DNA of 64,000 nt from an uncultured Gammaproteobacteria bacterium. GTDB taxonomy: Bacteria; Patescibacteriota; Patescibacteriia; UBA9934; CAZDDW01. Below are positions 10,498 to 56,840 of the stretch, one piece after another (within the stretch, counting starts at the first letter, position 1; every line of letters begins with the position of its first letter). The stretch is from NCBI GenBank assembly GCA_965231015.1, contig OZ246408.1, forward strand, positions 481,237 to 545,236, given 5' to 3'. The notes below the pieces were generated by a model. The model searched no databases and was not told the origin of the DNA. It saw only the letters and a list, made by a program, of their open reading frames with translations. The position numbers and the translations under genes are program-made.

Positions 10498-10499
10498 CA

Positions 10500-10537
10500 C
10501 GTCGCAAATCGCTCGTCGTCCAGAAACGACATGCGAC
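10500..10537 (+). promoter_or_regulatory. palindromic leader element (CGTCGCAAATCGCTCGTCGTCCAGAAACGACATGCGAC) in 5' UTR of GT2 gene; second copy at 29627..29664
   Basis: A second copy with about 38/42 matches lies in the equivalent position upstream of another glycosyltransferase gene. It has nested inverted repeats (GTCGCA...GTCGT / ACGAC..GCGAC). Confidence 0.5.
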
Positions 10538-10562
10538 AAGCGACGCGCAACGTGTGATATAT

Positions 10563-29617: not shown

Positions 29618-29626
29618 CCAATCGTT

Positions 29627-29664
29627 CGTCGCAAATCGCTTGTCGTTCTGAAACGACGTGCGAC
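29627..29664 (+). promoter_or_regulatory. second copy of palindromic leader element (CGTCGCAAATCGCTTGTCGTTCTGAAACGACGTGCGAC), followed by (GCGATAT)x3 tandem heptamer
   Basis: See 10500..10537. Here it sits about 21 nt upstream of the TagA-like start codon. Confidence 0.5.
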
Positions 29665-29685
29665 GTGCGATATGCGATATGCGAT

Positions 29686-39449: not shown

Positions 39450-39843
39450 ATGATGTTTTGTAATTATCCGGTTGAAACGGTTTTAATCGCACCAGCTGAA
39501 TGTGCCTGTTTTGAGTTTTTGCTAGATACTGTTTTAGACTTTCGTAAAGTTCATCTTGATCATATCCAACAGCGATCACATCTGGTTTGACCTCCTCGAC
39601 GATCTTGAATTTTCCTCGTTGGCGATCTGACAGCCAAGCCTCATCTATGAGCGGGTAATCCTTCACTATCTGCAATCGTTCTTGCTCATCAAATTTGGGG
39701 GCCCTGTCCTTGGTTTCTCTTACATATCGATCTCGAGCAACACTAGCTATTAAATAGTCACCATGTTCTCGAGCTTCATGCATCATGGCAAAGTGCCCAG
39801 GGTGTAGCTCATCAAAGGTCCCAAAAATTAATACGCGGCTCAT
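39436..39843 (-). CDS. cytidylyltransferase-like nucleotidyltransferase (TagD/RibL-like, HxGH motif)
   Basis: The sequence RVLIFGTFDELHPGHFAMMHEAREHGDYLIASV matches the family. The protein is 135 aa. Confidence 0.7.
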   Translation of the reverse strand: MSRVLIFGTFDELHPGHFAMMHEAREHGDYLIASVARDRYVRETKDRAPKFDEQERLQIVKDYPLIDEAWLSDRQRGKFKIVEEVKPDVIAVGYDQDELYESLKQYLAKTQNRHIQLVRLKPFQPDNYKTSYARH

Positions 39844-43754: not shown

Positions 43755-44058
43755 GGCGTATAACGGCCGGCGGCTATGCGACGTGGTCCGGAGACGAGCT
43801 TGCTCGTCGACGGGCCATGTCCGCATAGCTGACTGTTGTGCGATGTCGCGTAGCGACGAGCGCAACAAAAGGCGTAGCCGCCGGCCGTTGTGGCGAAGGA
43901 GCGAAGCGATTTCGCCACAACGTTTGCGTGTATCTGATGTTTTGCGGAGCAAAATATGGGAGATCGAAGTGCAACGAGTGAACCGCATATGCTGTGTTAG
44001 GCGAGCCGAACGGAGTGATAGCGAAGTGAGAGTGCAACGTGCCTTTAGCGTATTTTTG
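43755..44058. repeat. GC-rich hairpin-rich repeat element R1 (core module A + module C)
   Basis: A ~170-bp core is nearly identical to R2 and R3: a 14-bp perfect inverted repeat ACGGCCGGCGGCTA...TAGCCGCCGGCCGT encloses ~90 nt, followed by the hairpin GTTGTGGCGAA..TTCGCCACAAC. Arg-rich ORFs inside it are artefacts of GC-richness. Confidence 0.8.
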
Positions 44059-44115
44059 AAAAAATTATCATTATTATTCTTTTGTTGTTGGTCTTTTTAT
44101 AATTGTTGATTGCTA

Positions 44116-44520
44116 TTAACCAAATACTGCAAAACCTTCCCCAAATACCCTTGATGAAACCGCACTTAATATGATAACGCCAACAAGTAATGTCACCATT
44201 ATAAAAATAACTTCTCCAAGAATAACTTTTTTATATAACTTACCCAGCTCACTCTCACACGTTTTTTTCAGAAATTCAGATAAAAATTTTTCTTTGAAGT
44301 AGAAATATAAACCTAATAATATAAATAAGGTTCCTACAAGTAAATTGATGACAAAACCAATGCGAGATAAATAAATACTACCAATGATAATCAATCCACT
44401 TGTTATCCAAAGAAAAATCGTCAAATAAGTTGCGAACTGTAATAATTTTAATTGTAAGTTATTTTTCATAATGTTTAGTCTGAATAAATTAATTTTTATA
44501 TACTCCAACAACAAAAACAT
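44116..44520 (-). CDS. hypothetical integral membrane protein (4 TM)
   Basis: Hydrophobic helices are present. The 5' end of the tracked ORF overlaps a repeat motif, so the start was trimmed. Confidence 0.45.
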   Translation of the reverse strand: MFLLLEYIKINLFRLNIMKNNLQLKLLQFATYLTIFLWITSGLIIIGSIYLSRIGFVINLLVGTLFILLGLYFYFKEKFLSEFLKKTCESELGKLYKKVILGEVIFIMVTLLVGVIILSAVSSRVFGEGFAVFG

Positions 44521-44815
44521 TTTAAAAACAAATTTTTCAAAAATATGTCGCCTAACGTTCAAGTATATGAGAAGTTTCGCACACTCCTTATTAAAATTCA
44601 ATAATGTGTGTGCGAAATTTGGGTAAAAGAAATTGCGCCCCCGCTAAAAGTTAAGAAGCGTAATTTCTTGAACCTCTTATACTTTGTTGTACGATGTTGG
44701 CTTTCCATTTTATTCGATTTTTTGGGGAGTTTTCGGTCGTTTGCAATTGACAGGCGGGGAGCAACTTGCTATTATTCAAAGTCGCAATTCCGCGACCAAC
44801 GAAGGAGGTTTATCA

Positions 44816-45102
44816 TGAGTGACAAGACGAAGAGGCGACCGGCACACGAGATCATCATGGGGATGATACACGAGGCGTACAGAGATCTGGCTTCTGCCGA
44901 TAAGGGGCAGGAAGAACGGCATGCTGTTCGGATTCAGACTCTGTGCCAGGTGATGACTGACATGTTCATCCCCGAGGAATTGATGCCTCAGCTGACCAAT
45001 CAGCTCGAAATGGCCACCCGAGTCCCCATCATCGCCGATGTGGCCTACCTGGTGCACGAGGACATTCAGCGTCTCATGGGCAGGCTCATGTACGACGAGT
45101 AG
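44816..45102 (+). CDS. GC-rich hypothetical protein (95 aa) with strong SD (AAGGAGG 8 nt upstream); only plus-strand gene in the island
   Basis: Its composition differs from its neighbours. There is an RBS, and start is MSDKTKRRPAHEIIMGMIHEAYRDL. Confidence 0.5.
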
Positions 45103-45221
45103 AACGCCCCGCCGCCATCCGCTTCACCAACCCCCGTTCGGACAACATGTCCAGCAGGGGTTCATTTTTTATAGAGAAAACTGCCCAAATAATTGAATTG
45201 GAAAAGAGAAAAATGGAAAGC

Positions 45222-45345
45222 CAATTTCGCCACAACGTTCCTGCGTATGCGATGTTTGCTAGTGGTATAATTGCACGAAGTGCTTACCACTGGCAAATAT
45301 GGGTGCAGTGAGGAGGAGGTACAACGACGAACGGAACCGCATATT
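45222..45345. repeat. partial repeat R2' (module B: hairpin CCAGTGGTATAATTGCACGAAGTGCTTACCACTGG)
   Basis: It is near-identical to the right half of R3. Confidence 0.7.
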
Positions 45346-45350
45346 CTTTG

Positions 45351-45899
45351 TTATATGATGTTTTTGTGTGACACGTCATTAAGATAAAACAATATTGCAA
45401 TCAATGATATACCGTCTGATATTTCCTTGTTTTCAATCAGTTCTTTGACTTTAGCAATAGAGAGCCAATGGATTTCATTGACTTCATCTGTATCAAAATC
45501 TATTTGTTTAGAACTATCAGCTTCACCAATAACTACATGTGTCGTTTGGTTTGACATTCCGTTTGAAGGATTGAAAGAATAATGGAGTTTTAATGCCTTC
45601 GTTCTAAACCCAGTTTCTTCTAGCACTTCGCGTTCAGCGGCTTTCAAAATATCCTCGCTTTTATCGATTCCACCGGCGGGTAATTCCCACTGAATCTGTT
45701 GGGTTGTATAGCGAAGTGCTTTTATGAAGCAAATGTCTTTTTTATCGTTGGTCAACAAAACGACTACAGAATCGTTTGGATAGTCTAAAAAATGGTATTT
45801 TTCAATAATTTTACCAGAAGGCATTAAAACCCTGTCTGTATAGAGGTTGATCCATTGGCTCTCGTAGATTGTTTTTCGCTCTAGTCTTTCAGGTAACAT
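45351..45899 (-). CDS. NUDIX hydrolase
   Basis: It carries the Nudix box GGIDKSEDILKAAEREVLEETGF. Confidence 0.85.
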   Translation of the reverse strand: MLPERLERKTIYESQWINLYTDRVLMPSGKIIEKYHFLDYPNDSVVVLLTNDKKDICFIKALRYTTQQIQWELPAGGIDKSEDILKAAEREVLEETGFRTKALKLHYSFNPSNGMSNQTTHVVIGEADSSKQIDFDTDEVNEIHWLSIAKVKELIENKEISDGISLIAILFYLNDVSHKNII

Positions 45900-45943
45900 A
45901 TCTTGATTGTATTAGTGTCACACAAAAATTTCACACAACGGCC

Positions 45944-46240
45944 GGCGGCTATGCGACGTGGTCCGGAGACGAGCTTACTCGTCGACGGGCCATGTCCGCA
46001 TAGCTGACTGTTGTGCGATGTCGCGTAGCGACGAGCGCAACAAAAGGCGTAGCCGCCGGCCGTTGTGGCGAAGGAGCGAAGCGATTTCGCCACAACGTTC
46101 GCGTATATCTGATGTTTTGCGGAGCGTAGCGGAGCAAAATATGGGAGAGCGACGGCAGGAGCGAACCAGATATACGCTGTTGTGCGAGGGTGAGCGACGA
46201 TAGGAGCGAAAGTGCAACGACCCCGAAGCGTATTTTTCAA
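45944..46240. repeat. GC-rich repeat element R2 (core module A + modules C and D)
   Basis: See R1. The core 45944..46115 is nearly identical. Confidence 0.8.
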
Positions 46241-46359
46241 TATTTTTTCATTCTTTATTATTTTGTTGAAGAATTTTATTATTATTTGGAATTTTTATTT
46301 TTTCGTTTTTCTTTTTCCAAGAGGGATTAGGGGTGAATTGGAAAAAGAAAAACACCTTA

Positions 46360-47840
46360 CTAAAAAAATCCTCTCATTTTCTCAATAGACTGTTTTAGCT
46401 GTTTTATATCGGGTTTTCCATTATCTTTTTGATGATGAATTTGATTTCTCAAAAATGTATGAATAGTTACTTCATTTTGATTTCCTTTCCATGGAGAATC
46501 TTTTGTTTCTTGTTTTTCACTTTGAAAATAATCTATATCAAATTTTTTGATTGCTTTAGTAATGGTTTCCTTTGTTCCGTCTTTTTTTTCTATTTCTTCT
46601 TGTCCATGTTTAAATATTAATTCTTCGTATAATTCGTTGTGATATTCTTCAGTTGCTAACCCAAAAGCAATAAAATTTACTTCGTTAGCTGAAACATATG
46701 GTAAAACTCTTTTTTCTAATTCTAAAATTTTTACTTCTTCATTTTCTTTCTCTAAGCAATGAATTTGAATTTTGCTATTGTCATTATTTAATGTTTGTTT
46801 AACAAAAAGTGGAGAGTGAGTAGAAAATAGAAATTGATTTTTTTCAGAAATTGAAACTATGTGGTTAATAAAATTATTTTGTAAATCTGGGTGCAAATGT
46901 AGTTCTGGCTCATCAATTAAAATCAAAATGTTTTCTTTTGAAATTTCTGCCATTGTTTCTAAAAATAATAAGGAAACAACCATTTCAACACCTGATCCAA
47001 GTTGAGATATCGGCAAATCTAAACTTTCTAATTTTTGAGAAAGAAAAGCACTATCAAAAGGTGCGTTACAATCAATTAGTGAAAGATCTGCTTTCGGTAA
47101 GCCGACTTTTTCAAGTTTTTCGTTTAATGTCTGAAATGTTTTTTGTTGTGATTTTTCGTCAATTTTTTCTAAAACGCTTGTTTCAAAATTATTTTTTTGA
47201 GTTGTAAATTTTTCTCCGTCAAAATCTTCCTTTGTTTCATTTTTTTTATTTCTTTATTAAATCTCCAATTAAAATCTTCAAAAACTGACGAAATGGAAGA
47301 ATTAAACCCTCTCTGTAATTGTTTTTCTCTGTTTTTTGGAAAATAAAAACTTTTTGGCAACCCTTCTGATTCCAAAGGAAAAGATAACTGTCTTTCATCA
47401 AATTTAAATTTTGTTCCTGTCCCTCTTGTTATCTCCCAGCCATTTTCATTATCTTTTTCTCTGTTTGGTAAAACATAATGAGACACAACAACAATATCTG
47501 AAAATGCTTTTTTAGGAGTTGCCCTATCTCTCTTTTTTATTTCCAAGCAAACTTTACTGCATTCAACATCTTGTTTAGTATAGCCGTCAGGTAAAAAGAT
47601 TTTAAAGTTTTCATTAAATTCTAAAATAATCTTTATTTCAACATCTTCGCCTTTATAAAAATCTGTATGTTTTATTCTTCCTGATAAAAAATAAGGAGAA
47701 AGACAAAAATTTATTGCTTCCAAAATAGAGGTTTTACTTGTTCCATTTTCACCAACAAGCAAAGAAAGATTTTTTAGTTCAAAATCTTTTAATTCTTTTA
47801 TGCCTCTAAAATTTTGGATTGTGATTGTCTTTATCTTCAT
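46360..47840 (-). pseudogene. AAA_21/ABC-like ATPase (OLD/RecF-type) disrupted by frameshift(s): N-part 47169..47840, C-part 46360..47016
   Basis: The N-terminal part has Walker A (LLVGENGTSKTSILEAINF). The C-terminal part has the signature and Walker B (SQLGSGVEMV...LILIDEPELHLHP...STHSPLF). The roughly 150-nt gap between them contains T8 homopolymers. Confidence 0.55.
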
Positions 47841-47860
47841 AACTTTTTTATTTAAAAAAT

Positions 47861-48943
47861 CTAAACTCCCACAAAATATCTATTCTCTTCTTTTGTGGCA
47901 AAAACTTTTTCTTCTTTTTTCTTGTGTATCGATTCTGTTTTTGGCGTTTGATTCATTTTTTCATTCTTCTGTATTCTTTTATTTCTGATTAAAATTCTAA
48001 AATATGGACATTTTCCATTTATAGACAAATCTTTTTCGTCATTTCCTTTTCTGAATTTAATTATTTCAAACTGATCTGGGTTGAATTTATGTAAAAAAGT
48101 TATCGGTACACCCATAACACCTGAATAATCCAAAGGAATATTTTGTGTTTTATTCACATTAATTCCATGATAATTATCATAATGAGGATACTCAGTTTCG
48201 TTTCCAAAATATTTCTTAGTAAGAGGAATATCTTCGTGTCTTTTAGAAGTATCTAAATTGGTGAGCCATAGACAATTATTTGGGGAGACTATTCTATTTC
48301 CAAAGTCATCAATACGGGCTTCTGTTCCATAAAGCTCATAATGTTCTGGAACAATAAAGCCTGAAATACCTCTACCTAGATTTATTCCTAACCACGCTTT
48401 ACTTCTCTTAATTAATTTAAAAATTTCTTTGTAGGTTATAGCATTAATATTGCCAATAATCAGAAATTTCTTATCATATTTAACCAATTGATCTACGTGC
48501 TCTCTAAATAATGAAAATGGTGGATTAGTAACAACTATATCGGATTGTTTTAATAACTGGATACTTTCCGCACTACGAAAGTCCCCATCCCCTTTAAAGT
48601 GAACAATATCATCTGAACTTGGCTTTGTTTTTTCATCTTGAGCACCTGTATATTCATAAAAAAATCCACATTCAGATACCTCAGTATTAAATAAATTTCT
48701 TTCTTGTTTTTTATAACAAGCCGCTATTAATTTTTTAAGTCCTAGCTCTTTGAAGTTTAAAGCAAAATAATGAAAAAAATTACTAATTTTTGGATCATCG
48801 CAATTACAAAAAACCACTTTGTTTTTAAAATGATCTTTATAATGTTGCAATTCGCTTTCTATATCTGAAAGTTGAGTGTAAAACTCATCACTTTTTGATT
48901 TTTTAGCTTTTTGCAGTAATGTATTTGTTGCATTTCTTGCCAT
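47861..48943 (-). CDS. N6-adenine DNA methyltransferase, M.EcoRI family
   Basis: The N-terminus MARNATNTLLQKAKKSKSDEFYTQ...VVFCNCDDP is near-identical to M.EcoRI as recalled. The NPPF motif is present (IVVTNPPFSLF), and the C-terminus reads GKCPYFRILIRNKRIQK. Confidence 0.85.
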   Translation of the reverse strand: MARNATNTLLQKAKKSKSDEFYTQLSDIESELQHYKDHFKNKVVFCNCDDPKISNFFHYFALNFKELGLKKLIAACYKKQERNLFNTEVSECGFFYEYTGAQDEKTKPSSDDIVHFKGDGDFRSAESIQLLKQSDIVVTNPPFSLFREHVDQLVKYDKKFLIIGNINAITYKEIFKLIKRSKAWLGINLGRGISGFIVPEHYELYGTEARIDDFGNRIVSPNNCLWLTNLDTSKRHEDIPLTKKYFGNETEYPHYDNYHGINVNKTQNIPLDYSGVMGVPITFLHKFNPDQFEIIKFRKGNDEKDLSINGKCPYFRILIRNKRIQKNEKMNQTPKTESIHKKKEEKVFATKEENRYFVGV

Positions 48944-48970
48944 AATCAAATTTTATAAATAAAATTTTAG

Positions 48971-49806
48971 TTATTTGCTCTTAGTTATCTGTTTAAATAT
49001 TTCACTTCCTAATACTTGAAGAGAGGTTTTTGAAATCTCAATCATAATGTTAAACATCTCTTTTGCATCCCATTTTTCTCCATTGCCTTGTGTATATATT
49101 GAAGTTGCCTGAAGCATAATTGTTTTATCTTTGTGTTTAACAAATTTATTTTTACACAGATTAGTATTAATTGGCATTCCATAATTTGCAGAGGTCAGCC
49201 TATCTAACCTATTTAACATTCCTGAATTGTATTCAAGTGTCACAACCCTTCCATCAGGTCTTTTAATTGAAATAGTTTCTGTTAAAAAATTTGACCCCTC
49301 CAAAAATAAGATATATGGAAAATGGGATTCATATAGCATAAAGTTGGCAATTTCTGATATGTTTTTATGTGATCTTTCTATCGCGTTACCGGCAGCCATC
49401 AAGTCTTGATTGTTGTTTATACCAACTTGATTTCCTTTCAGTATATTTTCAATGTCTTTCCCTTGATGTTTAGCCTCCGTTACAAGTAATACTCTCCAAT
49501 TATCGCTATCGTCTTTTACTTCTATTATTCCGCCATCAGGTTTAATGCTTGAATTTGATACAAAAATAGTTTGTCCTAACTCTGGATCAATTTTCTTTAA
49601 TGCTTCGTTTATTTCTTCCTTTTTTATGCTTGTTCTATATCTAAAAGATAATTGAGGAAATTCTTTTTCAAGTTGTTCAATTACAAGATGTGAAATTTTA
49701 CCAACACTTATATCATGCGATTTTGCGTTTTCTCCAAATATACCAACTACTCCGTGAGATTTTTATGCTGATTTGTTAATCTTTTAGATTGATTCTTTTT
49801 AGCCAT
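48971..49806 (-). pseudogene. EcoRI-family type II restriction endonuclease, N-terminal frameshift in T5/A5 run at 49760..49764
   Basis: The region downstream of the frameshift matches R.EcoRI closely: GVVGIFGENAKSHD, PQLSFRYRTSIKKEEINEALKKIDPELGQTIFVSNSSIKPDGGIIEVKDDSDNWRVLLVTEAKHQGKDI and QDLMAAGNAIERSHKNISEIANFML. The N-terminus MAKKNQSKRLTNQHKN is in the -1 frame; one extra A restores the full ORF. Confidence 0.8.
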
Positions 49807-49894
49807 ATTGTTTTTTGAATAAGTAAGGTGTCTTTATTATAGTGTTTTTTTATAAAAATTTAAAATTCATTTTTTGCGGAAGTATGAAGCAAAA

Positions 49895-49918
49895 AATACC
49901 ATATATCCCCCTCATTAA
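49895..49918 (-). promoter_or_regulatory. motif ATGAGGGGGATATATGGTA (minus sense) about 110 nt upstream of the EcoRI-like R start; related copies upstream of C gene
   Basis: The same about 19-nt motif occurs twice at 56629..56647 and 56681..56697. Confidence 0.4.
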
Positions 49919-49981
49919 AATAAAAATTCCATTCCTTTTTAAATTCTTCAACAAAATTCTTTATTTGAGAAAAAATATTGA

Positions 49982-50150
49982 AAAATATGTCGCACAACGT
50001 TAGGGCTATACGAAGTTTTTCGACCGAAGGGAGAAAAATTTGGAGAAATGGCGAGCCGAGCCATTTCTCGTATAGCCCTTGTTATACGAGGGTGAGCGAC
50101 CAACGGGAGCGAAAGCGCAGCGTCCCCTTGCGTATGACGCAGGCAGGCGA
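49982..50150. repeat. partial repeat R3' (modules sharing AAAAATATGTCGCNNAACGTT and GAGGGTGAGCGAC..GGAGCGAAAG with R2 and 44539..44600)
   Basis: The same sub-modules occur in R2 and at 44539..44600, as seen by eye. Confidence 0.5.
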
Positions 50151-50156
50151 TTTTCG

Positions 50157-50936
50157 TCAGTCCATCTTTTTCATTGGTTTATTGGGATCAACATTATCAT
50201 AATAAAAGTCAAAACCCAGCTCATCAAAAATATTCTCAAATTCTGTAAATACTTGTTCCACCACTTTCTGAAGTTTGGCAAAATTTTGGTACTCACCATT
50301 AATAATGATTTGGAGTAAGTCGTCAAAATGCTCAGGCTTCTTTTTGAATTTCTTTGCTTCTTCTATGAATTTTGCAAATGTTGTATAAGGCTTCTGATTT
50401 AGAAAAGTTAATGTTATTAACATGTAATTGCACATGTCAAATACCAAAAGGGAAATGCCAAGTTTGTTTTTTTTCGTGATAGCATTTAGAACTTTAGCAG
50501 TTGATTCTTGTAGGTCTCCGAAGTGATGAATGATCTGCTTGTGACACTTTTCTTTAAGGTTCTTAACTTTGTAATTGTTGAGACGATCTATAAAAGGTTT
50601 ATTGATGAGTGGAAGTAATTTATCAGAACCGGAAAGAAACCAATCAGGCGTGGGCTCTTTCACTGTTTTTATGTATGAGTCTTTAGTCATCCAAACCAGT
50701 TCAACCAGAAGACCATCACGGATTTTGCCCATGCCCGCCCAGGTTTTACCTCTTGGCATTTCCCGAACAAATGCAATTAACTCTAAATCAGAATAGCCAA
50801 AATCTTCGTTTCTAGCAAAAGAAGCCTGAGCCGCTAATGCAATAAGATTTTTGCCAAACTTCTTTTTGATAAGTGGAACAAGTTCTTTAACTACTTGCTC
50901 TCTTTCTTTATGAGAATATTTTTGTAGACCACGCAT
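50157..50936 (-). CDS. nucleotidyltransferase of the ANT(4')/KNTase/Lnu superfamily (NTase domain + KNTase_C-like helical domain)
   Basis: The sequence KEREQVVKELVPLIKKKFGKNLIALAAQASFARNEDFGYSDLELIAFV matches the pol-beta-type NTase motif ([GA]S...SD[LI]E[LM]). The protein is 259 aa. Confidence 0.6.
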   Translation of the reverse strand: MRGLQKYSHKEREQVVKELVPLIKKKFGKNLIALAAQASFARNEDFGYSDLELIAFVREMPRGKTWAGMGKIRDGLLVELVWMTKDSYIKTVKEPTPDWFLSGSDKLLPLINKPFIDRLNNYKVKNLKEKCHKQIIHHFGDLQESTAKVLNAITKKNKLGISLLVFDMCNYMLITLTFLNQKPYTTFAKFIEEAKKFKKKPEHFDDLLQIIINGEYQNFAKLQKVVEQVFTEFENIFDELGFDFYYDNVDPNKPMKKMD

Positions 50937-51014
50937 AGTGTTAGATAGTTTATATTAGTATATAAATATTGCTGGGTTTTGACCATCTTAGAAAATCGCC
51001 TGCCGAGTAATATT

Positions 51015-51300
51015 TCGTATAACGGCCGGCGGCTATGCGACGTGGTCCGGAGACGAGCTTACTCGTCGACGGGCCATGTCCGCATAGCTGACTGTTGTGC
51101 GATGTCGCGTAGCGACGAGCGCAACAAAAGGCGTAGCCGCCGGCCGTTGTGGCGAAGGAGCGAAGCGATTTCGCCACAACGTACCTGCGTATGCGATGTT
51201 TGCCAGTGGTATAATTGCACGAAGTGCTTACCACTGGCAAATATGGGTGGAGGCTTGCGGAGGTACGGAGCAAGCCGTAACCGCATACGCAGTGTTAGCT
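51015..51300. repeat. GC-rich repeat element R3 (core module A + module B)
   Basis: See R1. The core 51020..51185 is nearly identical. Confidence 0.8.
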
Positions 51301-51364
51301 GATGTATTCCTTTTCTTTTCGACGATAGTCGTTTGTTTTAAAAATTTTCAAATTTCTTTTTCCG

Positions 51365-51473
51365 TTTTGGGTGGTGGGCAGAGGGGAATTAAAGGGGTGA
51401 ATGCCCGCCACCCAAAACACCTATTTCTGTTTGAGGGAGGGGCAAGAGGGGAACAAAAGGGGTGAATTGCCCC
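51365..51473 (-). terminator. two tandem GC-rich hairpins directly after the Ppl-like gene stop, loops sharing GAGGGGAAYWAAAGGGGTGAAT
   Basis: Hairpin 1 is TTTTGGGTGGTGGGC..GCCCGCCACCCAAAA. Hairpin 2 is GGGGCAA..TTGCCCC. Both are flanked by A/T runs. Confidence 0.5.
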
Positions 51474-51486
51474 GACCGAAAACATG

Positions 51487-54339
51487 TTATTTGTTTAACA
51501 AATATTTCCTTTCTCGCTGTCTAAAGGCTTCCTCTCCACCTTCAAGAATATCTCTTATATTTTTGTTTATTTCTGGATTTTCAATACTGCCTGATAAATA
51601 GCCTAATTCTTGATCTAGCCTTGCTACGATTATTTGTTCGGCATCCGCATTAACTACTAGATTAGCGTTGTGGGTCGACATTATGATTTGTCTTGATTGT
51701 TTGGCCTTCCGGATGAGTGGGACAAGTTCATTCATTATGAAATTGTTATCAAGGTTGTCTTCAGGTTGATCTATAATGAAAACTTGTTTTGCCGTTGCAG
51801 TAGCTAAATAGACTTTTAGTAAAAGGGTTCCTCTTTGTCCGATAGATAAAATTTCAGTTGCCTTTCCATTTAACTTTGCAATTGCTTTTACTCCCAAGAA
51901 GTCAGCCCATTCAGTGAAAATGTAATATGTGATTCCGCTGATTCCATCACGACTAAAACATTTTTGTTCGCCTAGGTCAGTTTTTTGTATCCATACTGAT
52001 AGATTCTCAAAGGTTATTTCTCGGGGCGTTCCGTCTTCATTTGTGCCAGCTATCATTTTTTTCAGATCAGTTTCATTTGCTACTTTCCGGTTATCCAGAA
52101 AATCATCCAATACACGCTTAGCAAACTTTTTGAAATTAAATTCAATTTTTCCCTCAACTTCAATGCCATTGATAATTTTTTCGAATAGTTCCTTCTCTTC
52201 GGCTGTTGAATCATCGCGTGAATTTTGAAAATCTTTAAATGCTTGTGTGATGGCATTTCGTAGGGCAAGTAATGAATTACTGATTTGTTCCAAGATTTTT
52301 CTTTTCTCCTCATGCAAGTCCACCAATTGTGTTATTGACCGATTGTAATTCTCAAGATCTTTTCCAATGTTGCTTATTTGGCGTTGTAAATTTTCACTGG
52401 CCTGTAATAAGGTATTAACATCTTCCTTAATACCCTGTTCAATAAGTTTCTTTTTTAGAGCAATGATTTCTTCTCTCAATTTAGTCATATCTGCCTCAAT
52501 TTTTGTCTGTAATTCGCTAAGTACTTTTGTCTGTTTGCTGATATTTAGACCCTCAATCTCTTCGTTGTCGGGGTAGTGGTTTTTTAGAATAATGTTGAAG
52601 TTGGCTATTTCTTGTGTGATTGGCAATTCACGAAGGCCTAGCAGTAGTGTGTTTGCTTTTTCTTTCAACTCTTTAAGCTTAAGTCCTTTTTCAGTTTTTT
52701 TATTTATTTCATCAAGTGTCTCCTTTGTTTCTTTTGATGAGAGTCTTTTTTGTTGGTCTGTAAGTTTTGCTAAATAGCTTGCTATCCATTTTTCCAAGTC
52801 TTCGCCCTCGGTATATCCAAGCTCTTTATACCGTTCAATAATGTCTCGGGTACGTTGCTGGGTATTATCAATATCACCAAGTACATCTCGTGCTTTTGAA
52901 GTTAAAACTTCTTGGCCTATTTCGTTAACGTCAATGCCAATCAAATCGCAAACAGTTCGTGTTAGTTCAAAATCATTTGTTGCAATACCGCTTAGCCTTT
53001 CTTGTCCTAGGTACAAAAATGGTAATTCAAGATTTGTTTTATCCGAAAGTTCCTTCTCAAATTCAGACATATCACCATCTTTATCTATCAATGAAGTTTT
53101 GAATGTATAAGAAGGACGTGGCTCTGTTCTTGCTTCATTATCTCTATAATATTCAATAATCTTTTTCTTATTGTTTTGATCTAATTTTAAATGTTCCTCA
53201 TTAAGAAAAGCGAAAGTATCAAGCAGAGCACTTTTTCCACTTCCTCTACCGCCAATTAATGCTATAAGCTCTCTATTTAATAGTATTTCTAAGTCAGGCA
53301 AAACAAAATTTTTACTTCCAGTTAGTTTTATTGAATCAAAATATATTTTCTTTTTTTCTTCGTATGGGTTCTGTTCTTGAATTTTTACTCTTTCCGAAGG
53401 TTCAAATAGTAATTGTTTCAGCCCGTCAAATGTTGGGTTGGATTTAATCCATGTATATCTTTTATTGTCTGGTTCAAATAACTTTTCGTAGGTGTGGGAA
53501 TCTGACCCCCAAATGCATGGTTTAAGGCTTTTAAATTCATTAATGTATTCTTGGGGATTCTCATGCTTTCTTCCAAGACCCCAATTTATCGTAGCTTGAT
53601 TTGAACTGATAAGTACATCAGATTTTTGAATATAAATTTTTCTTACATTATGATCTTGTCCATCCCAAGAAATTTTACTTAAATCTTCATCAGAAGGTAC
53701 ACACATCATATACATGCCTGCAAATTTCGATTTCTTATTAGTTAGTATTTCTGCTATCTGAGTGTGATTTACTACCGCACACTTCATGCCGACAAATAAG
53801 TCAGTATCTGAGTTAAACTCTGCGTGCTCTTTCTTTAGACTTTGACCCAACGTTTCAAGGTTGGGAATTTTTAATTTCCATTTTTCATCAGTGCCTTGAG
53901 GATTTCCTTCATAAATAAAATCTAATTCGTGGAGGAAATTTTCTTCAATATCTGTAATTAAAACTTCATCTGAAAAAATCACATGAAAATTTACTCGGTT
54001 ACCATCTACTAACGTATCAAGGCGAAATTCTACATTTGGGAACAGTTTTATTTTTTTAATTTGCTTAATTTCTTTATCCGTAAATAGTTCAGCAAGCTTG
54101 GTGTCATTATTCAGGTACTCCTGCTTTATCTTCTTATATCCTTCAATGCAGAAGTAATCAGTAATTCCTATAACCGCTATCTGCTTTTCAATGGCAGCTT
54201 TAAAAAGCTTTTTAACATATTCATCGAAGTCATCGCCAAAGCCATTACTTAAATGCGAAAAGGGAGTATGAACCTGTAAATCCCATTTTCTCCAAATCGA
54301 CCCCCTTTGAAACTGATTGTATTTAACTTCGTCAGACAT
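51487..54339 (-). CDS. PHP-domain phosphoesterase fused to SMC/ABC-type ATPase with coiled-coil (Ppl-like single-gene defence candidate)
   Basis: The N-terminal PHP motifs are WDLQVHTPFSH, NVEFRL, NFHVIF and GSDSH. Walker A is LIGGRGSGKSALLDTF, followed by a long coiled-coil middle. The C-terminus has Walker B/D-loop FIIDQPEDNLD and H-loop MSTHN. Confidence 0.7.
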   Translation of the reverse strand: MSDEVKYNQFQRGSIWRKWDLQVHTPFSHLSNGFGDDFDEYVKKLFKAAIEKQIAVIGITDYFCIEGYKKIKQEYLNNDTKLAELFTDKEIKQIKKIKLFPNVEFRLDTLVDGNRVNFHVIFSDEVLITDIEENFLHELDFIYEGNPQGTDEKWKLKIPNLETLGQSLKKEHAEFNSDTDLFVGMKCAVVNHTQIAEILTNKKSKFAGMYMMCVPSDEDLSKISWDGQDHNVRKIYIQKSDVLISSNQATINWGLGRKHENPQEYINEFKSLKPCIWGSDSHTYEKLFEPDNKRYTWIKSNPTFDGLKQLLFEPSERVKIQEQNPYEEKKKIYFDSIKLTGSKNFVLPDLEILLNRELIALIGGRGSGKSALLDTFAFLNEEHLKLDQNNKKKIIEYYRDNEARTEPRPSYTFKTSLIDKDGDMSEFEKELSDKTNLELPFLYLGQERLSGIATNDFELTRTVCDLIGIDVNEIGQEVLTSKARDVLGDIDNTQQRTRDIIERYKELGYTEGEDLEKWIASYLAKLTDQQKRLSSKETKETLDEINKKTEKGLKLKELKEKANTLLLGLRELPITQEIANFNIILKNHYPDNEEIEGLNISKQTKVLSELQTKIEADMTKLREEIIALKKKLIEQGIKEDVNTLLQASENLQRQISNIGKDLENYNRSITQLVDLHEEKRKILEQISNSLLALRNAITQAFKDFQNSRDDSTAEEKELFEKIINGIEVEGKIEFNFKKFAKRVLDDFLDNRKVANETDLKKMIAGTNEDGTPREITFENLSVWIQKTDLGEQKCFSRDGISGITYYIFTEWADFLGVKAIAKLNGKATEILSIGQRGTLLLKVYLATATAKQVFIIDQPEDNLDNNFIMNELVPLIRKAKQSRQIIMSTHNANLVVNADAEQIIVARLDQELGYLSGSIENPEINKNIRDILEGGEEAFRQRERKYLLNK

Positions 54340-54342
54340 AAA

Positions 54343-55419
54343 CTATTTGATAAATCGTATTTGCAGGTTGAGTTTGATAAACATTTCGCCGTTTTCTTCG
54401 TAAACTGTGCCGTATCCGTGGCGTGTTGCACTTGGTGATTCCATGCGAGTGTTATTAAACAAGTAATTTCGAAACGCTTCCGCATTATAAAGATGATAAC
54501 AAACGATTTCGCCGTCTTCACGAACCACAATCACTCCACCGTGGGCACGCAAGGTACCGTCCCATGCACTGGCGGGAACCATTCCGAGAGCTGCATTATT
54601 GAGTAATGCTTTGATTTTGTAGGCGTAGTCTTCGGTGGAAAGTTTGAAATTCAAAATTTGCATTTTTTCATCTTGCAAGTGTTGCAATAATTCCGGGAAA
54701 GTTGCGCCTTTGTCAGAGAAATAAGCCAAAAGAACTTCCGCCATTATTTCTGGCATGATCGTGTCGATTTTTCGTAAGTTTCGCTCGAAAACTTCGGAAT
54801 CAATGCCGTGAAACGCAAACGCTCCGCCCGCTTCACGAATTGCGAAAAGGCGATCACGAATTTTTGCCTTTGTATCAATTGTATTTATTTCTTCAATTTT
54901 TCGTTCATCAAGTCCTGTGATTTTGTATGTAAAGTTAGTTGCTCCCGAAGCGTTGAGAAGTGTTGCGGGTGAACCGAGTTTTGATTTGATACTGAATCCT
55001 ATTTCGTGATCTCGTCCGATCGTGTGATCATGGACTTTCAAAATCAAATCTTCTTTCCGTGCATTTCCGGCATTGAGGGTTTTTATTCCAAAGCGTTCAA
55101 AAAGTTCGTCCGCAAGTGGGACGGAAAAGGTTTGTGATTTTTCTTTAATCTCCGCAAATACTTCAACGACTTTCGATTTCAAATCGGAGGTGTCTACGAT
55201 TGTGGTTTCGCCGTCAATGTGCAAGATTTTCACTTTTTCTCCTTCTTGCAATTCGTATTCCGATTTCCCCTCGGTCTCCTCACGGATTATTTTCAAAATT
55301 GGAAAAAAGACCGCTTCGATTTTTTCGAGTTCTTCATCAGCTCCGATGATTTTTTTATCGACGAGAAGTTTTATAAAAGCATAAAACTCGCTCCATTCGC
55401 CTTTATTTCCTGTGATCAT
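54343..55419 (-). CDS. type II restriction endonuclease candidate (HpaII-like family by N-terminal GNKGEWSE.Y...KLL pattern; assignment tentative)
   Basis: It lies immediately downstream of, and 3'-overlapping, a C5-MTase in a C-M-R arrangement. Motifs GNKGEWSEFYAFIKLL and SIKSKLGSPATLLNASGATNFTYKI are present. Confidence 0.5.
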   Translation of the reverse strand: MITGNKGEWSEFYAFIKLLVDKKIIGADEELEKIEAVFFPILKIIREETEGKSEYELQEGEKVKILHIDGETTIVDTSDLKSKVVEVFAEIKEKSQTFSVPLADELFERFGIKTLNAGNARKEDLILKVHDHTIGRDHEIGFSIKSKLGSPATLLNASGATNFTYKITGLDERKIEEINTIDTKAKIRDRLFAIREAGGAFAFHGIDSEVFERNLRKIDTIMPEIMAEVLLAYFSDKGATFPELLQHLQDEKMQILNFKLSTEDYAYKIKALLNNAALGMVPASAWDGTLRAHGGVIVVREDGEIVCYHLYNAEAFRNYLFNNTRMESPSATRHGYGTVYEENGEMFIKLNLQIRFIK

Positions 55420-56320
55420 AAGTATTGAGTGATTGGATAATTTGTTGAGCGACCGCTTGAATGGCAGTAACCGCAACCGCATTTCCCAGTTGCTTCATTG
55501 CTTTCATGTCTGAAACTGGAAATTCAAAATCATCGGGGAAGCCCATCATTTTTTTACCTTCAACCGGTGAAAGTCGTTTTACTTTTCCTTTTACCATGTA
55601 TGAATCCCAGTTATGGCGATCATCAATTTTTGATCCTCGTCCACCAACACGAAGTGTATATCCGATTTTCTTTTCGCAAGGTGCGCCCCAAATGTCGGAC
55701 ATGGTTTTTTCGAGTTTGATTGGTTCCGGAAATTCAAATTTTATATTTGGATCTTTGAATCCGACCATAAATAGACGGGGTCGGTGTTGCGGAAGCCCAA
55801 AATCGGACGCTTTAACTATTTTGTAATGGAATGAATAGCCAAGATCATCGGTTATTGTTTTTTTAATAACTTCAAAAGTTTTTCCGTCGTCGTGATTCAA
55901 CAAGTGTCGAACATTTTCCAAAAAGAAAGCCGTCGGTTGTTTTTCTTTGATGATTCTTACTATGTCATGAAAAAGTGTTCCGCGAGTATCTGAAAAACCT
56001 TTTCTAAAGCCGGCTTGTGAGAATGGCTGACAAGGAAAACCACCCGTCAAAATATCAAAGTCGGGGATTTCTTTTTCATCTACCTTGGTAATGTCGCCTG
56101 CAAATAATTCTTTTCCTTCCGCAAAAAGGCCTTTTTTGAAAAGCTCAGGTTGGATTTTTTTGAAATTATGCTCGTATGTTTGGCGTGCGTGTTCGTCCCA
56201 TTCACTTACAAAAACGCATTTTGCACCCGCATTGTGAAAAGCCAAATGAAAACCACCTATTCCAGCGAACAGGTCAATGAAAGTGATTTCCCGTTTTTTC
56301 TTTTGAGTTTTCGCTTTCAT
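55403..56320 (-). CDS. DNA (cytosine-5)-methyltransferase (Dcm/HhaI-type, short TRD)
   Basis: Motif I is DLFAGIGGFHLAF, motif IV is GGFPCQPFSQAG, motif VI is FFLENV and motif X is QLGNAVAV. Confidence 0.9.
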   Translation of the reverse strand: MKAKTQKKKREITFIDLFAGIGGFHLAFHNAGAKCVFVSEWDEHARQTYEHNFKKIQPELFKKGLFAEGKELFAGDITKVDEKEIPDFDILTGGFPCQPFSQAGFRKGFSDTRGTLFHDIVRIIKEKQPTAFFLENVRHLLNHDDGKTFEVIKKTITDDLGYSFHYKIVKASDFGLPQHRPRLFMVGFKDPNIKFEFPEPIKLEKTMSDIWGAPCEKKIGYTLRVGGRGSKIDDRHNWDSYMVKGKVKRLSPVEGKKMMGFPDDFEFPVSDMKAMKQLGNAVAVTAIQAVAQQIIQSLNTYDHRK

Positions 56321-56322
56321 AG

Positions 56323-56532
56323 TTATTTTATTAAGTCGTTAATGTCCACTTCAAGTGCTTGCGCAATTTTTGTCATTGTTTCGATTGTTGGGTTTCCGTT
56401 GTTTCCTGATTCTAAAGTAACAATTGTATTGAGTGCGACATCAGCAAGTTTTGATAGTCGGTCTTGCGATATCCCTTTTTCGGTACGGATCTTTTTTAAG
56501 TTCTTACCTATGTTTGCAATGTTTGGTTTCAT
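56323..56532 (-). CDS. XRE-family HTH protein, R-M controller (C) protein candidate
   Basis: The sequence is MKPNIANIGKNLKKIRTEKGISQDRLSKLADVALNTIVTLESGNNGNPTIETMTKIAQALEVDINDLIK. It lies directly upstream of the MTase. The start was set at an internal ATG. Confidence 0.7.
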   Translation of the reverse strand: MKPNIANIGKNLKKIRTEKGISQDRLSKLADVALNTIVTLESGNNGNPTIETMTKIAQALEVDINDLIK

Positions 56533-56609
56533 ATACCAGTAGAATGTAATAGTTACACTGGTTGTATTGTATCGTGTCTGAAATGCTTGGTCAATTCTTA
56601 TAAATAAAT

Positions 56610-56705
56610 GTTCCGCCGACAGGCGGAACTCCATATATTCCCCTCATCAAAAAAGCGTTTCCGTAGCTTTGCGGAGGAAACACCATATTTCCCCTTATAA
56701 AAAAG
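56610..56705. promoter_or_regulatory. two tandem units of [GC hairpin + CCATATWTCCCCT motif] upstream of the C gene
   Basis: Unit 1 is GTTCCGCC gaca GGCGGAAC + tccatatattcccctcat. Unit 2 is GTTTCCG tagctttg CGGAGGAAAC + accatatttcccctta. Confidence 0.45.
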
Positions 56706-56840
56706 AAAAAGAAATTTGAAAATTTTTTAAAACAATTGGGCGATAGCCCAGAAAAGAAAAGGAATATTTCAGCTAACTCGTTTATATGTGAAGTAAAGTT
56801 CGGATAAAGTATGGATTTAAGATAATATCCGATCCTAATC

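What the first reader, a model, noticed from the sequence alone, without database searches (positions are those of the whole stretch)
47861..49806. EcoRI-family R-M system in an AT-rich small-genome bacterium, with the endonuclease inactivated by a homopolymer frameshift
Both proteins align almost residue-for-residue, by eye, with my recollection of R.EcoRI and M.EcoRI. The R side shows catalytic PD..EVK..EAK, the GNAIERSHKNISEIANFML helix and the C-terminal TSLQVLG. The M side shows MARNATN, SDEFYTQ and NPPF. Gene order (R then M) and the ~27-nt spacing match the E. coli system.

The R gene is broken 16 codons in: MAKKNQSKRLTNQHKN is in the -1 frame relative to the rest, and a single extra T in the T5 run at 49760-49764 restores a full-length 277-aa ORF. 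The M gene is intact.

So this is either a recently decayed system (orphan GAATTC-specific MTase), a slippage-prone on/off switch, or a sequencing error.
Basis: partly seen in the sequence, partly recalled or inferred. Interest (0 to 1): 0.7.

Follow-up and report, generated by a model that had tools for sequence, protein, structure and literature searches.

The report
Broken EcoRI-like restriction system in gene cassette
This is a close relative of the classic EcoRI restriction-modification system whose cutting enzyme gene has recently been broken by a one-base deletion while its protective methylase is intact; that fate is common, but the system sits in an integron-like mobile gene cassette in a tiny-genome (CPR) bacterium.

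Summary
On the minus strand, 49806-48971 encodes an EcoRI-family endonuclease: 74.9% identical to R.EcoRI without gaps, with catalytic and recognition residues identical. 48943-47861 encodes an intact M.EcoRI-family methylase (72.7% identical).

The R gene is broken at codon 16. The window has A5 (T5 at 49760-49764) where the two closest relatives have A6. Adding one A gives a 278-aa protein, the length of nearly all of the 120 best homologs.

Two separate short-read assemblies carry the same A5. More than 100 other homopolymer runs in the island's intact genes are in frame. The site is not a conserved tract in relatives, and dN/dS is 0.07. A recent, real inactivating deletion is the best reading, leaving a methylase-only state. 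R is damaged or absent next to a retained M in 18 of 68 related loci, so this is ordinary.

New context:
- The host is a Patescibacteria (CPR) bacterium with about 42% GC; only the island is AT-rich.
- R, M and a neighbouring AriA/OLD-like ATPase gene form a 3.9-kb attC-bounded cassette. The ATPase is also frameshifted (A9 to A8).
- The cassette lies in a 13-kb integron-like array of defence cassettes with no integrase in the window.
- Related arrays sit beside short IntI-like recombinases that lack the IntI-specific domain.

The parts
49747..49806 (-). 5' fragment of the EcoRI-like endonuclease gene: ATG at 49806, 19 codons (MAKKNQSKRLTNQHKNLTE), premature TAG
   Evidence: the first 15 residues match the N-termini of intact homologs
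49760..49764 (-). A5 run (T5 on the + strand) where the closest relatives have A6: the 1-nt deletion that breaks the R gene
   Evidence: alignment with L003 and L004, CAGCAT-AAAAATCTCA against CAGCATAAAAAATCTCA; survey of relatives
48971..49762 (-). Remainder of the R gene (263 codons plus TAA) in the shifted frame. It has no further lesions and carries catalytic D91/E111/K113 and the EcoRI recognition residues
   Evidence: dN/dS 0.07 against relatives
47861..48943 (-). Intact M.EcoRI-family N6-adenine DNA methyltransferase gene (360 aa, NPPF motif, 34-aa C-terminal extension relative to M.EcoRI)
   Evidence: Pfam PF13651 at 435 bits; PADLOC MTase_II; 72.7% identity to M.EcoRI over 326 aa with no gaps
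46360..47840 (-). Third gene of the cassette: an AAA_15 / AriA / OLD-like ATPase. It is split into two ORFs by a 1-nt deletion in a poly-A run (T8 at 47240-47247; the intact homolog implies A9)
   Evidence: the intact 498-aa homolog in L026 aligns across the break
49836..49864 (-). Promoter-like site (TTTAAA-17-TATAAT) upstream of R, in a leader conserved in relatives
   Evidence: consensus match only; the number of such sites is not above chance
49992..50087 (-). attC-like site of the preceding cassette. Its G|TT (G at 49998) marks the start of the R-M cassette at 49997
   Evidence: z -5.8; homology to L003 and L026 starts exactly at GTTGTGC
46090..46185 (-). attC-like site of the R-M cassette. 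Its R'' GCACAAC is complementary to the cassette's first bases TTGTGC. The cassette ends at G 46096
   Evidence: the same attC follows the cassette in L003; L026 has the same R'' with a different L''/L' stem that keeps the pairing
46096..49997 (-). The whole 3.9-kb gene cassette: leader, R (broken), M, ATPase (broken), trailer hairpin, attC
43758..56777 (-). Integron-like cassette array (defence island) holding the R-M cassette: 8 attC-like sites, all genes on the minus strand, an attI-like junction ATAAACGAG|TTAGCT at 56777, and no recombinase gene alongside
   Evidence: gene content

Best explanation
This is a Type IIP restriction-modification operon of the EcoRI family. By inference it recognises GAATTC, and M would make GA(m6A)TTC.

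The operon was acquired horizontally as part of a 3.9-kb attC-bounded gene cassette (R, M and an AriA/OLD-like ATPase). The cassette sits in an integron-like array of defence cassettes in the chromosome of a roughly 1-Mb Patescibacteria (CPR) genome.

In this genome the endonuclease gene carries a real and recent 1-nt deletion in an A6 tract at codons 15-16, so translation stops after 19 residues. No usable start codon follows in the main frame. The methyltransferase gene is intact, so the locus now behaves as a methylase-only (orphan-like) system.

The ATPase gene of the same cassette was knocked out in the same way (A9 to A8). Slippage in short poly-A runs of AT-rich foreign DNA supplied the mutations. 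Selection against, or indifference to, a potentially self-toxic nuclease kept them. This is the usual way R-M systems decay.

Shown:
- family membership of R and M;
- the lesion and its ancestral state;
- intactness of M;
- the cassette boundaries.

Inferred:
- the specificity;
- that M is expressed;
- that the deletion is fixed rather than heterogeneous;
- the selective reason.
For: Family membership:
- PDB EcoRI E=4.6e-135.
- Pfam EcoRI 496 bits and EcoRI_methylase 435 bits.
- 74.9% (R) and 72.7% (M) ungapped identity to the proteins of an E. coli EcoRI plasmid.
- D91, E111, K113, residues 137-142, E144, R145, R200 and R203 are identical to EcoRI.

The lesion:
- The two closest relatives have A6 where the window has A5.
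- Nearly all of the 120 best homologs are 278 aa; the 15 whose sequences were read begin ...QHK(K/E)S(Q/H/K/R)GV(V/I)G.

The lesion is real:
- Logan contigs from SRR7048225 and SRR7048221 are collinear with the window and have no indels. One of them differs by a single SNP elsewhere.
- These contigs break at 136-189-nt repeats, as short-read assemblies do.
- 90 homopolymer runs of 5 or more bases in the six intact island genes are all in frame, with 42 more in the rest of R and the ATPase.

The lesion is recent:
- There is no other stop or shift in the remaining 263 codons.
- dN/dS is 0.07 against relatives, the same as between two intact relatives.

This is a common fate:
- 17 damaged and 1 absent R next to a retained M, among 68 assessable genome loci.

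Cassette structure:
-.
- In a systematic test, the bases after G|TT match the next cassette's R'' in 18 of 34 pairs and the cassette's own R'' in 0 of 34.

Second frameshift:
-.
Against: - No reads could be inspected, so a minority A6 subpopulation cannot be excluded. Nor can a systematic homopolymer under-call shared by runs of one project.
- Both lesions in the cassette are single-A losses in poly-A runs, which is also the signature of some sequencing chemistries.
- The specificity GAATTC is inferred from 75% identity and conserved contact residues. It was not tested. K130 is replaced by I in this copy.
- Expression of M was not shown.
Confidence: 0.74

Rival explanations
1. Reversible phase variation: slippage in the poly-A tracts (A5/A6 in R, A8/A9 in the ATPase) switches the two potentially toxic defence genes off and on within the population. 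The sequenced state would simply be the OFF phase.
For: - Both lesions lie in homopolymers and are each repaired by +1 A.
- The rest of both genes is undamaged.
- Homopolymer-switched R-M genes are well known in Helicobacter, Haemophilus, Neisseria and Campylobacter (general knowledge).
Against: - A6 is far shorter than known contingency tracts.
- The site is not a conserved tract. In about 65 relatives it reads AAAAAA, AAAAAG, AAAGAG, AAACAG and others, and none is shifted there.
- The intact L026 ATPase has no poly-A at the equivalent position.
- Three assemblies from at least two runs all show the same OFF lengths.
- No intact allele of this copy was found in JGI metagenomes.
Confidence: 0.12
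2. Sequencing or assembly artefact: the true genome has T6 (and T9) and both genes are intact.
For: - Both breaks are single-base under-counts in homopolymers.
- The remaining ORFs are perfect.
- The NCBI record and the Logan runs may derive from one project.
Against: - Independent de Bruijn assemblies of two runs reproduce A5 and A8 with no indel over 3.8-4.0 kb. One of them carries a distinguishing SNP.
- Six intact AT-rich island genes hold 90 runs of 5 or more bases with no frame error, and the window's housekeeping genes are full length.
- A 5-base run is not error-prone for short-read data.
Confidence: 0.1
3. Recoding: a programmed -1 ribosomal frameshift or transcriptional slippage on the A run yields some full-length endonuclease, keeping R at a low, safe level.
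For: - The shift needed is -1 on an A-rich stretch (U AAA AAU).
- The downstream frame is fully open and conserved.
Against: - The heptamer is not a canonical X XXY YYZ site.
- No stimulatory structure follows (z = +0.35).
- No relative conserves a frameshift here. All 50 intact R genes in the genome loci, and all 120 best database homologs, are single full-length ORFs.
Confidence: 0.03

Closest known systems
EcoRI restriction-modification system (ecoRIR-ecoRIM) of small E. coli plasmids
   Same: - Same two protein families, same order (R then M) and same strand.
- Short spacer.
- 74.9% (R) and 72.7% (M) amino-acid identity without gaps, and 72% nucleotide identity across the operon.
- Identical catalytic and DNA-recognition residues.
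- Low GC: 29% here against 32%.
   Different: - R is frameshifted here.
- Repaired R is 278 aa against 277.
- M has a 34-aa C-terminal tail.
- The spacer is 27 nt against 29.
- K130 is I.
- The system is chromosomal, in an attC-bounded cassette of a CPR bacterium, and is linked to an ATPase gene.
Orphan or solitary methyltransferases left by decay of Type II R-M systems
   Same: An intact M sits next to a disabled R. The same state is seen in 18 of 68 related loci, for example several Microcystis copies.
   Different: Here the decay is at its very first step: one deletion, with no other lesion and dN/dS of 0.07. The R gene is therefore still one mutation away from function.
Integron gene cassettes that carry anti-phage defence systems (sedentary chromosomal integrons; Darracq et al., bioRxiv 10.1101/2024.07.02.601686)
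   Same: - Co-oriented cassettes separated by attC-like imperfect palindromes with AAC...GTT ends.
- Crossover at G|TT.
- Defence cargo, including small Type II R-M systems.
   Different: - No integrase beside the array in this window, so it is CALIN-like.
- The host is a CPR bacterium.
- The cassettes are large (3.9 and 5.6 kb) and hold several genes.
- They have long complementary leader and trailer modules and a conserved trailer hairpin.
- Recombinases found beside related arrays lack the IntI-specific domain.
Phase-variable R-M genes with homopolymer tracts (Helicobacter, Haemophilus, Neisseria, Campylobacter)
   Same: A frameshift within a homopolymer in an R-M gene, reversible in principle by slippage.
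   Different: The tract is only 5-6 bases, it is not conserved in relatives, and no length heterogeneity was seen.

Membership tests
EcoRI-family Type IIP restriction endonuclease (Pfam PF02963) | Full-length sequence match to the family profile and to solved EcoRI | tested here: met
EcoRI-family Type IIP restriction endonuclease (Pfam PF02963) | PD...(D/E)XK catalytic residues D91, E111, K113, plus the recognition elements (extended chain 137-142, E144, R145, R200, R203) | tested here: met
   All are identical to R.EcoRI in an ungapped alignment. Among the residues checked, only K130I and I197M differ
EcoRI-family Type IIP restriction endonuclease (Pfam PF02963) | An intact, translatable gene | tested here: not met
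   1-nt deletion at 49760-49764, stop after 19 codons, and no start codon in the main frame until 49402
EcoRI-family Type IIP restriction endonuclease (Pfam PF02963) | Cleavage at G^AATTC | not testable with these tools
   Inferred only, from 75% identity and conserved contact residues
M.EcoRI-family N6-adenine DNA methyltransferase (Pfam PF13651) | Full-length profile match, NPPF catalytic motif, intact ORF | tested here: met
   PF13651 at 435 bits (cut-off 26.4)...VVTNPPFS... present; 360-aa ORF; 72.7% ungapped identity to M.EcoRI
M.EcoRI-family N6-adenine DNA methyltransferase (Pfam PF13651) | Methylation of the second A of GAATTC | not testable with these tools
   Needs methylome data or an EcoRI-resistance assay
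Integron gene cassette / attC array | attC: an imperfect palindrome of about 57-141 nt with R''(..AAC) L'' ... L' R'(GTT..), at the 3' end of each co-oriented cassette | tested here: met
   8 sites of 88-136 nt with coordinates; the ssDNA fold z-score is -5 to -9.5 for 5 of the 8 sites, -2.75 for this cassette's own attC, and not significant for the other 2; confined to the island
Integron gene cassette / attC array | Recombination crossover at G|TT: the first 6 nt of a cassette pair with the R'' of that cassette's own attC, not with the upstream one | tested here: met
   Window pairs: TTAGCT/AGCTAA, TTATAC/GTATAA, TTGTGC/GCACAA, TTGTGG/CCACAA, TTAGGC/GCCTAA. L026 adds two matches seen by eye, one of them the same TTGTGC/GCACAA pair, and the scan a third, TTAGCC/GGCTAA. 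Homology between genomes breaks exactly at G|TT. Scan result: 18 of 34 match the next cassette against 0 of 34 matching the own attC
Integron gene cassette / attC array | An integron integrase gene adjacent to the array and divergent from it | tested here: not met
   The array is flanked by mrdA (56841) and by GreA (42490). The 20 window ORFs scanned hit no tyrosine-recombinase family; about 17 other ORFs of at least 150 aa, all more than 6 kb from the array, were not scanned. An attI-like junction is present at 56777. The array therefore classes as CALIN-like
Integron gene cassette / attC array | The integrase carries the IntI-specific additional domain (Messier and Roy 2001, as cited in PMC9668308) | tested here: not met
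   Tested on 9 recombinases beside related arrays in metagenome loci. TIGR02249 scores 184-223 bits, below its cut-off of 265, and matches in two pieces. Alignment to IntI1 shows that residues of about 207-248 are missing
Phase-variable (contingency) R-M locus | A long homopolymer or SSR in the ORF, conserved among relatives, with length heterogeneity in populations | tested here: not met
   The tract is A5/A6. It is not conserved in about 65 relatives. Length is identical in three assemblies. Read-level heterogeneity could not be tested
Programmed -1 ribosomal frameshift | A slippery X XXY YYZ heptamer, a downstream stimulatory structure, and conservation of the shift | tested here: not met
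   The heptamer is U AAA AAU; the downstream fold has z = +0.35; all relatives are single ORFs

The most novel reading that the evidence does not exclude
The R-M cassette may belong to an undescribed CPR-type integron. In this reading, arrays of multi-gene defence cassettes are bounded by attC-like sites and exchanged between distant Patescibacteria lineages; trailer and attC DNA is 96-98% identical between Uhrbacteria-like, Patescibacteria KA31 and Peregrinibacteria genomes. The cassettes have long complementary leader and trailer modules and a conserved C-rich trailer hairpin. They would be served by short (270-290 aa) IntI-like tyrosine recombinases that lack the IntI-specific domain considered necessary for integron recombination.
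Probability: 0.35. Interest if true: 0.7.

Novelty: new member of a known kind. Interest (0 to 1): 0.42.

Why it matters
Taken alone, the finding is a textbook case caught early: an addictive, potentially self-toxic restriction enzyme disabled by a single slippage event while the protective methylase survives. It predicts GA(m6A)TTC methylation without restriction in an uncultivated CPR bacterium, and methylome data could test that directly.

The context has wider interest. The same EcoRI-like genes, 87-95% identical at the protein level, occur in hundreds of species across many phyla. Here they can be seen travelling as a discrete attC-bounded cassette that is shared between distant CPR lineages. 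Beside related arrays there are recombinases that resemble integron integrases but lack their hallmark domain. If those recombinases move the cassettes, the definition and host range of integrons would widen, and this would explain how ultra-small symbionts trade defence systems.

Tried and rejected
- Sequencing error. Not eliminated, but made unlikely by two independent Logan assemblies and by the in-frame state of more than 100 other homopolymer runs.
- Evolved on/off switch. Rejected as the main reading because the tract is short and not conserved.
- Programmed frameshift. There is no canonical heptamer, no downstream structure and no conservation.
- Internal restart. There is no ATG, GTG or TTG in frame before codon 137 of 278.
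- Search for an intact (A6) allele of this very copy. None was found in JGI metagenomes or in the 5.8-billion-protein database, where the best hit is 95% identical.
- Finding the host genome itself in the GTDB representative genomes. It is not there; the best match is 87-89% identical.
- Finding the project from the SRA run numbers in the literature. No hits.
- Known RNA families in the GC-rich intergenic elements. None at the gathering threshold or at E<=1.
- A genome-wide REP-type repeat. Rejected because the repeats are confined to 43.7-51.5 kb.
- An integrase inside the window. None found next to the array or among the 20 window ORFs scanned.
- The trailer-hairpin motif in viral contigs. 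None found.
- PDB relatives of M. None found by sequence.
- Literature linking integrons to CPR/Patescibacteria. Nothing relevant in the searchable library.
Full report
**1. The observation**

On the minus strand an ATG at 49806 opens a frame that reads MAKKNQSKRLTNQHKNLTE and stops. The other frame is open from 49762 to the TAA at 48973-48971 and reads SHGVVGIFGENAKSHD...TSLQVLGSEIFKQITKSK. That frame contains no ATG, GTG or TTG until the TTG at 49402. The two frames meet in an A5 run (T5 at 49760-49764 on the + strand). Adding one A gives a single 278-aa ORF. The M gene runs from 48943 to 47861 (360 aa) and is intact. It lies 27 nt downstream of R.

**2. What the genes are**

The repaired R protein matches the solved EcoRI endonuclease at E=4.6e-135. 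It matches Pfam PF02963 over the whole profile at 496 bits. M matches Pfam PF13651 (EcoRI_methylase) at 435 bits and a PADLOC Type II methyltransferase model. It has no solved relative by sequence.

I compared both proteins with a real EcoRI operon fetched from an E. coli plasmid (NZ_CP068038).
- R is 74.9% identical over 275 residues with no gap.
- M is 72.7% identical over 326 residues with no gap.
- The DNA is 72% identical across the operon.
- The E. coli spacer is 29 nt, against 27 nt here.

D91, E111, K113, the extended-chain motif 137-142, E144, R145, R200 and R203 are all identical to EcoRI. K130 is I in this copy. GAATTC specificity is therefore a reasonable inference, but it was not tested.

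**3. The ancestral state of the lesion**

The database holds more than 5,000 homologs. The best 120 are 87-95% identical, and nearly all are exactly 278 aa. Their N-termini read MAKKNQSKRLTNQHK(K/E)SQGVVG.

The DNA of the two closest relatives (L003 and L004, 88-89% nucleotide identity) reads CAGCATAAAAAATCTCA. The window reads CAGCATAAAAATCTCA, so one A of an A6 run was lost.

In about 65 genome loci that include the N-terminus, the two codons at this site are AAAAAA, AAAAAG, AAAGAG, AAAGAA, AAACAG and others. None is shifted there. The site is two ordinary codons, not a conserved tract.

**4. Real or artefact?**

The exact M protein is encoded on contigs assembled independently from two sequencing runs: Logan SRR7048225 and SRR7048221.
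- The first contig is 100% identical to window 46070-50064.
- The second has one SNP, at 46326.
- Neither has an indel, so both carry A5.

These contigs end inside the 136-189-nt repeats of the island, which is how short-read assemblies behave.

The six intact genes of the AT-rich island hold 90 homopolymer runs of 5 or more bases, all in frame. The rest of R and the ATPase hold 42 more. The housekeeping genes of the window are full length. I could not look at reads, so a minority allele cannot be excluded.

**5. Age of the lesion**

The 263 codons after the shift have no other defect. dN/dS between the repaired R and its relatives is 0.07-0.08, the same as between two intact relatives. The gene was under purifying selection until very recently.

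**6. How common is this fate?**

A scan of one genome per species found 541 relatives of M. They occur in Patescibacteria, Bacteroidota, Cyanobacteria (many Microcystis), Proteobacteria, Desulfobacterota and Chlamydiota, and in one Woesearchaeota MAG.

Of the 80 loci fetched, 68 could be assessed.
- 50 have an intact R.
- 17 have a frameshifted, truncated or stop-containing R.
- 1 has no R.

M is retained in all of them. A caveat: a few of these MAGs may use another genetic code. Loss of R with retention of M is thus a routine outcome for this family.

**7. Host and island**

The window is 42% GC and carries ClpB, LysRS, SerRS, GreA, PBP2 and MreB. Its proteins occur only in one NCBI record with a 1,002,985-bp contig and in the same Logan runs.

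The nearest SerRS relatives that carry a name are Candidatus Uhrbacteria and other Patescibacteria, at no more than 72% identity. So 'small-genome bacterium' is right. Only the island is AT-rich: 29-30% GC around the R-M genes.

**8. A third gene, broken the same way**

Downstream of M, two ORFs (47840-47169 and 47016-46360) are the halves of one AAA_15 / AriA / OLD-like ATPase.
- A conceptual fusion matches the PADLOC AriA model end to end in one stretch.
- An intact 498-aa homolog in L026 aligns across the junction.
- That alignment shows the window lost one A from an A9 run, now T8 at 47240-47247.

**9. The R-M system is a gene cassette**

GC-rich palindromic repeats occur only between 43.7 and 51.5 kb, and they separate co-oriented genes. 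Read on the minus strand, they have the anatomy of attC sites: R''(NNNNAAC), L'', a loop, L', then R'(G|TTNNNN). There are eight of them, 88-136 nt long. As single-stranded DNA, five of the eight fold far better than shuffled controls (z from -5 to -9.5). This cassette's own attC scores z = -2.75 and two others are not significant.

The decisive feature is that the first six bases of each cassette are complementary to the R'' of that cassette's own attC:
- TTAGCT / AGCTAAC
- TTATAC / GTATAAC
- TTGTGC / GCACAAC (the R-M cassette)
- TTGTGG / CCACAAC
- TTAGGC / GCCTAAC

The same attC is followed by different hexamers depending on which cassette comes next. This is the footprint of recombination at G|TT.

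Two other CPR genomes carry the same cassette: L003/L007 (Patescibacteria KA31) and L026 (Peregrinibacteria).
- Homology to the window starts exactly at G|TTGTGC.
- The trailer hairpin and an attC whose R'' is GCACAAC are shared. L003 has essentially the same attC sequence. L026 has different L''/L' arms that still pair.
- In L026 the cassette is R (intact), M, ATPase (intact).
- In L003 the third gene is a different one.

I also ran a crude automatic scan of the window and 122 related loci. In 34 consecutive attC pairs with different R'', the four variable bases after G|TT matched the next cassette's R'' in 18 pairs. They matched the cassette's own attC in 0 pairs.

The R-M cassette spans 49997-46096. 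The array runs from an attI-like junction (ATAAACGAG|TTAGCT at 56777) to about 43758. Its other contents are:
- an HTH regulator, an HpaII-like M and R, and a 950-aa Ppl-like ATPase, together in one 5.6-kb cassette;
- a KNTase-like nucleotidyltransferase;
- a Nudix hydrolase;
- small ORFs;
- three copies of an ORF-less 164-nt cassette.

**10. No integrase here, and an unusual one elsewhere**

The array abuts mrdA on one side and GreA on the other. The 20 window ORFs scanned hit no tyrosine-recombinase family; about 17 other ORFs of at least 150 aa, all more than 6 kb from the array, were not scanned.

A conserved hairpin lies in the cassette trailers: the loop is ATTCACCCCTTTAATTCCCCTCT and the stems covary. 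It occurs in at least 120 metagenome contigs. Nine of those contigs encode a 270-292-aa tyrosine recombinase.
- It is always divergent from the array.
- It always lies upstream of the array.
- An ...A(A/T)AAACGAG|TT junction lies about 70-85 nt from its start codon in several of the nine; the others show variants such as AACTAG|TT or AAGGAG|TT.

These recombinases score 205-240 bits on NCBIfam NF040815 ('tyrosine recombinase/integron integrase'). They score only 184-223 bits on the integron-integrase model TIGR02249, whose cut-off is 265, and they match it in two pieces. Aligned with IntI1, they are 30-37% identical. The IntI1 sequence was recalled from memory and verified as 100% identical to annotated intI1 genes. 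They keep the catalytic R-K-H-R-H-Y residues and the IntI-like C-terminal (I/V)(K/R)SPL. They lack IntI1 residues of about 207-248, which is the IntI-specific domain.

Papers in the library describe defence systems, including small Type II R-M systems, in integron cassettes. They define IntI by that extra domain. I found no paper that links integrons to CPR bacteria.

**11. Alternatives**

- Phase variation. It is weakened by the short, non-conserved tract and by identical lengths in three assemblies.
- Recoding. It is weakened by the non-canonical heptamer, by the absence of a downstream structure (z = +0.35), and by the lack of any conserved shift.
- Artefact. It is weakened as set out in section 4.
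- Intact allele of this copy. None was found in JGI metagenomes.

**12. Verdict**

The finding is a new member of a very well known kind, in a common state of early decay. The surrounding integron-like cassette platform in a CPR genome is the more interesting part, and it deserves its own follow-up.

Noticed in passing
window 46360-47840 (T8 at 47240-47247): The AriA/OLD-like ATPase gene next to M is split by a 1-nt deletion in a poly-A run (A9 to A8). The intact 498-aa homolog in L026 spans the break. This is the second gene of the same cassette to be knocked out in the same way.
   Followed up: yes
window 43758-56777: An integron-like array of attC-bounded, co-oriented cassettes (a defence island) with an attI-like junction ATAAACGAG|TTAGCT at 56777. 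No recombinase gene lies beside it, so it is CALIN-like.
   Followed up: yes
window 51487-56600: The first cassette (5.6 kb) holds an HTH regulator, an HpaII-like C5-methyltransferase (56320-55403), an HpaII-like endonuclease (55419-54343) and a 950-aa Ppl-like ATPase (54339-51487). All appear intact. CCGG is not avoided in the window (259 sites).
   Followed up: partly
window 51017-51180, 45933-46096, 43758-43921: Three copies (93-98% identical) of a GC-rich, ORF-less 164-nt cassette made almost entirely of a 136-nt attC-like hairpin (ssDNA z from -7.8 to -9.5). These repeats are where the short-read contigs break.
   Followed up: partly
window 51356-51419, 51421-51484 and 46292-46366; loci L088-L207: A hairpin directly after the last stop codon of cassettes, with covarying stems and a conserved C-rich loop ATTCACCCCTTTAATTCCCCTCT (anti-Shine-Dalgarno-like). 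It is present in at least 120 metagenome contigs and absent from IMG/VR, and it has no Rfam match. Its function is unknown.
   Followed up: partly
window 49917-49957 vs 46260-46300; 56699-56777 vs 51294-51368: The leader of a cassette is complementary to its own trailer over 40-80 nt (73-93%). On circularisation the palindrome would therefore be much longer than a canonical attC.
   Followed up: partly
loci L092, L100, L105, L117, L135, L139, L147, L163, L191: Tyrosine recombinases of 270-292 aa lie divergent from and upstream of related cassette arrays. They are IntI-like (30-37% identity to IntI1, with the C-terminal KSPL) but lack the IntI-specific domain.
   Followed up: partly
window 28865-58012: There is no GAATTC site in 29 kb. 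Within it, the island 43.3-56.8 kb has 0 sites against 4.4-7.3 expected, while 1-28.9 kb has 12 against 9-14 expected. This may be avoidance of the site in the mobile cassettes.
   Followed up: partly
window 51175-51492 vs L026 3689-4008: Trailer and attC DNA is 97-98% identical between this genome and a Peregrinibacteria MAG, whereas the coding parts of the shared R-M-ATPase cassette are only about 85% identical.
   Followed up: no
window 50157-50936: A single-gene cassette encodes a KNTase_C-domain nucleotidyltransferase. In L026 a SAM-dependent methyltransferase cassette occupies the equivalent position.
   Followed up: partly
window 10487-10560 and 29614-29687: A 74-nt GC-rich intergenic repeat (76% identical) lies outside the island, at the ends of glycosyltransferase-region genes.
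   Followed up: no
window 39840-41927 and 26082-29072: The lysyl-tRNA synthetase is fused to a C-terminal HD/HDIG domain (695 aa). A 996-aa ORF has no NCBIfam match.
   Followed up: no
loci L208-L212 (IMG/VR): Endonucleases 83-86% identical to this one also occur on five contigs classed as viral, so the family also travels on phage-like elements.
   Followed up: no
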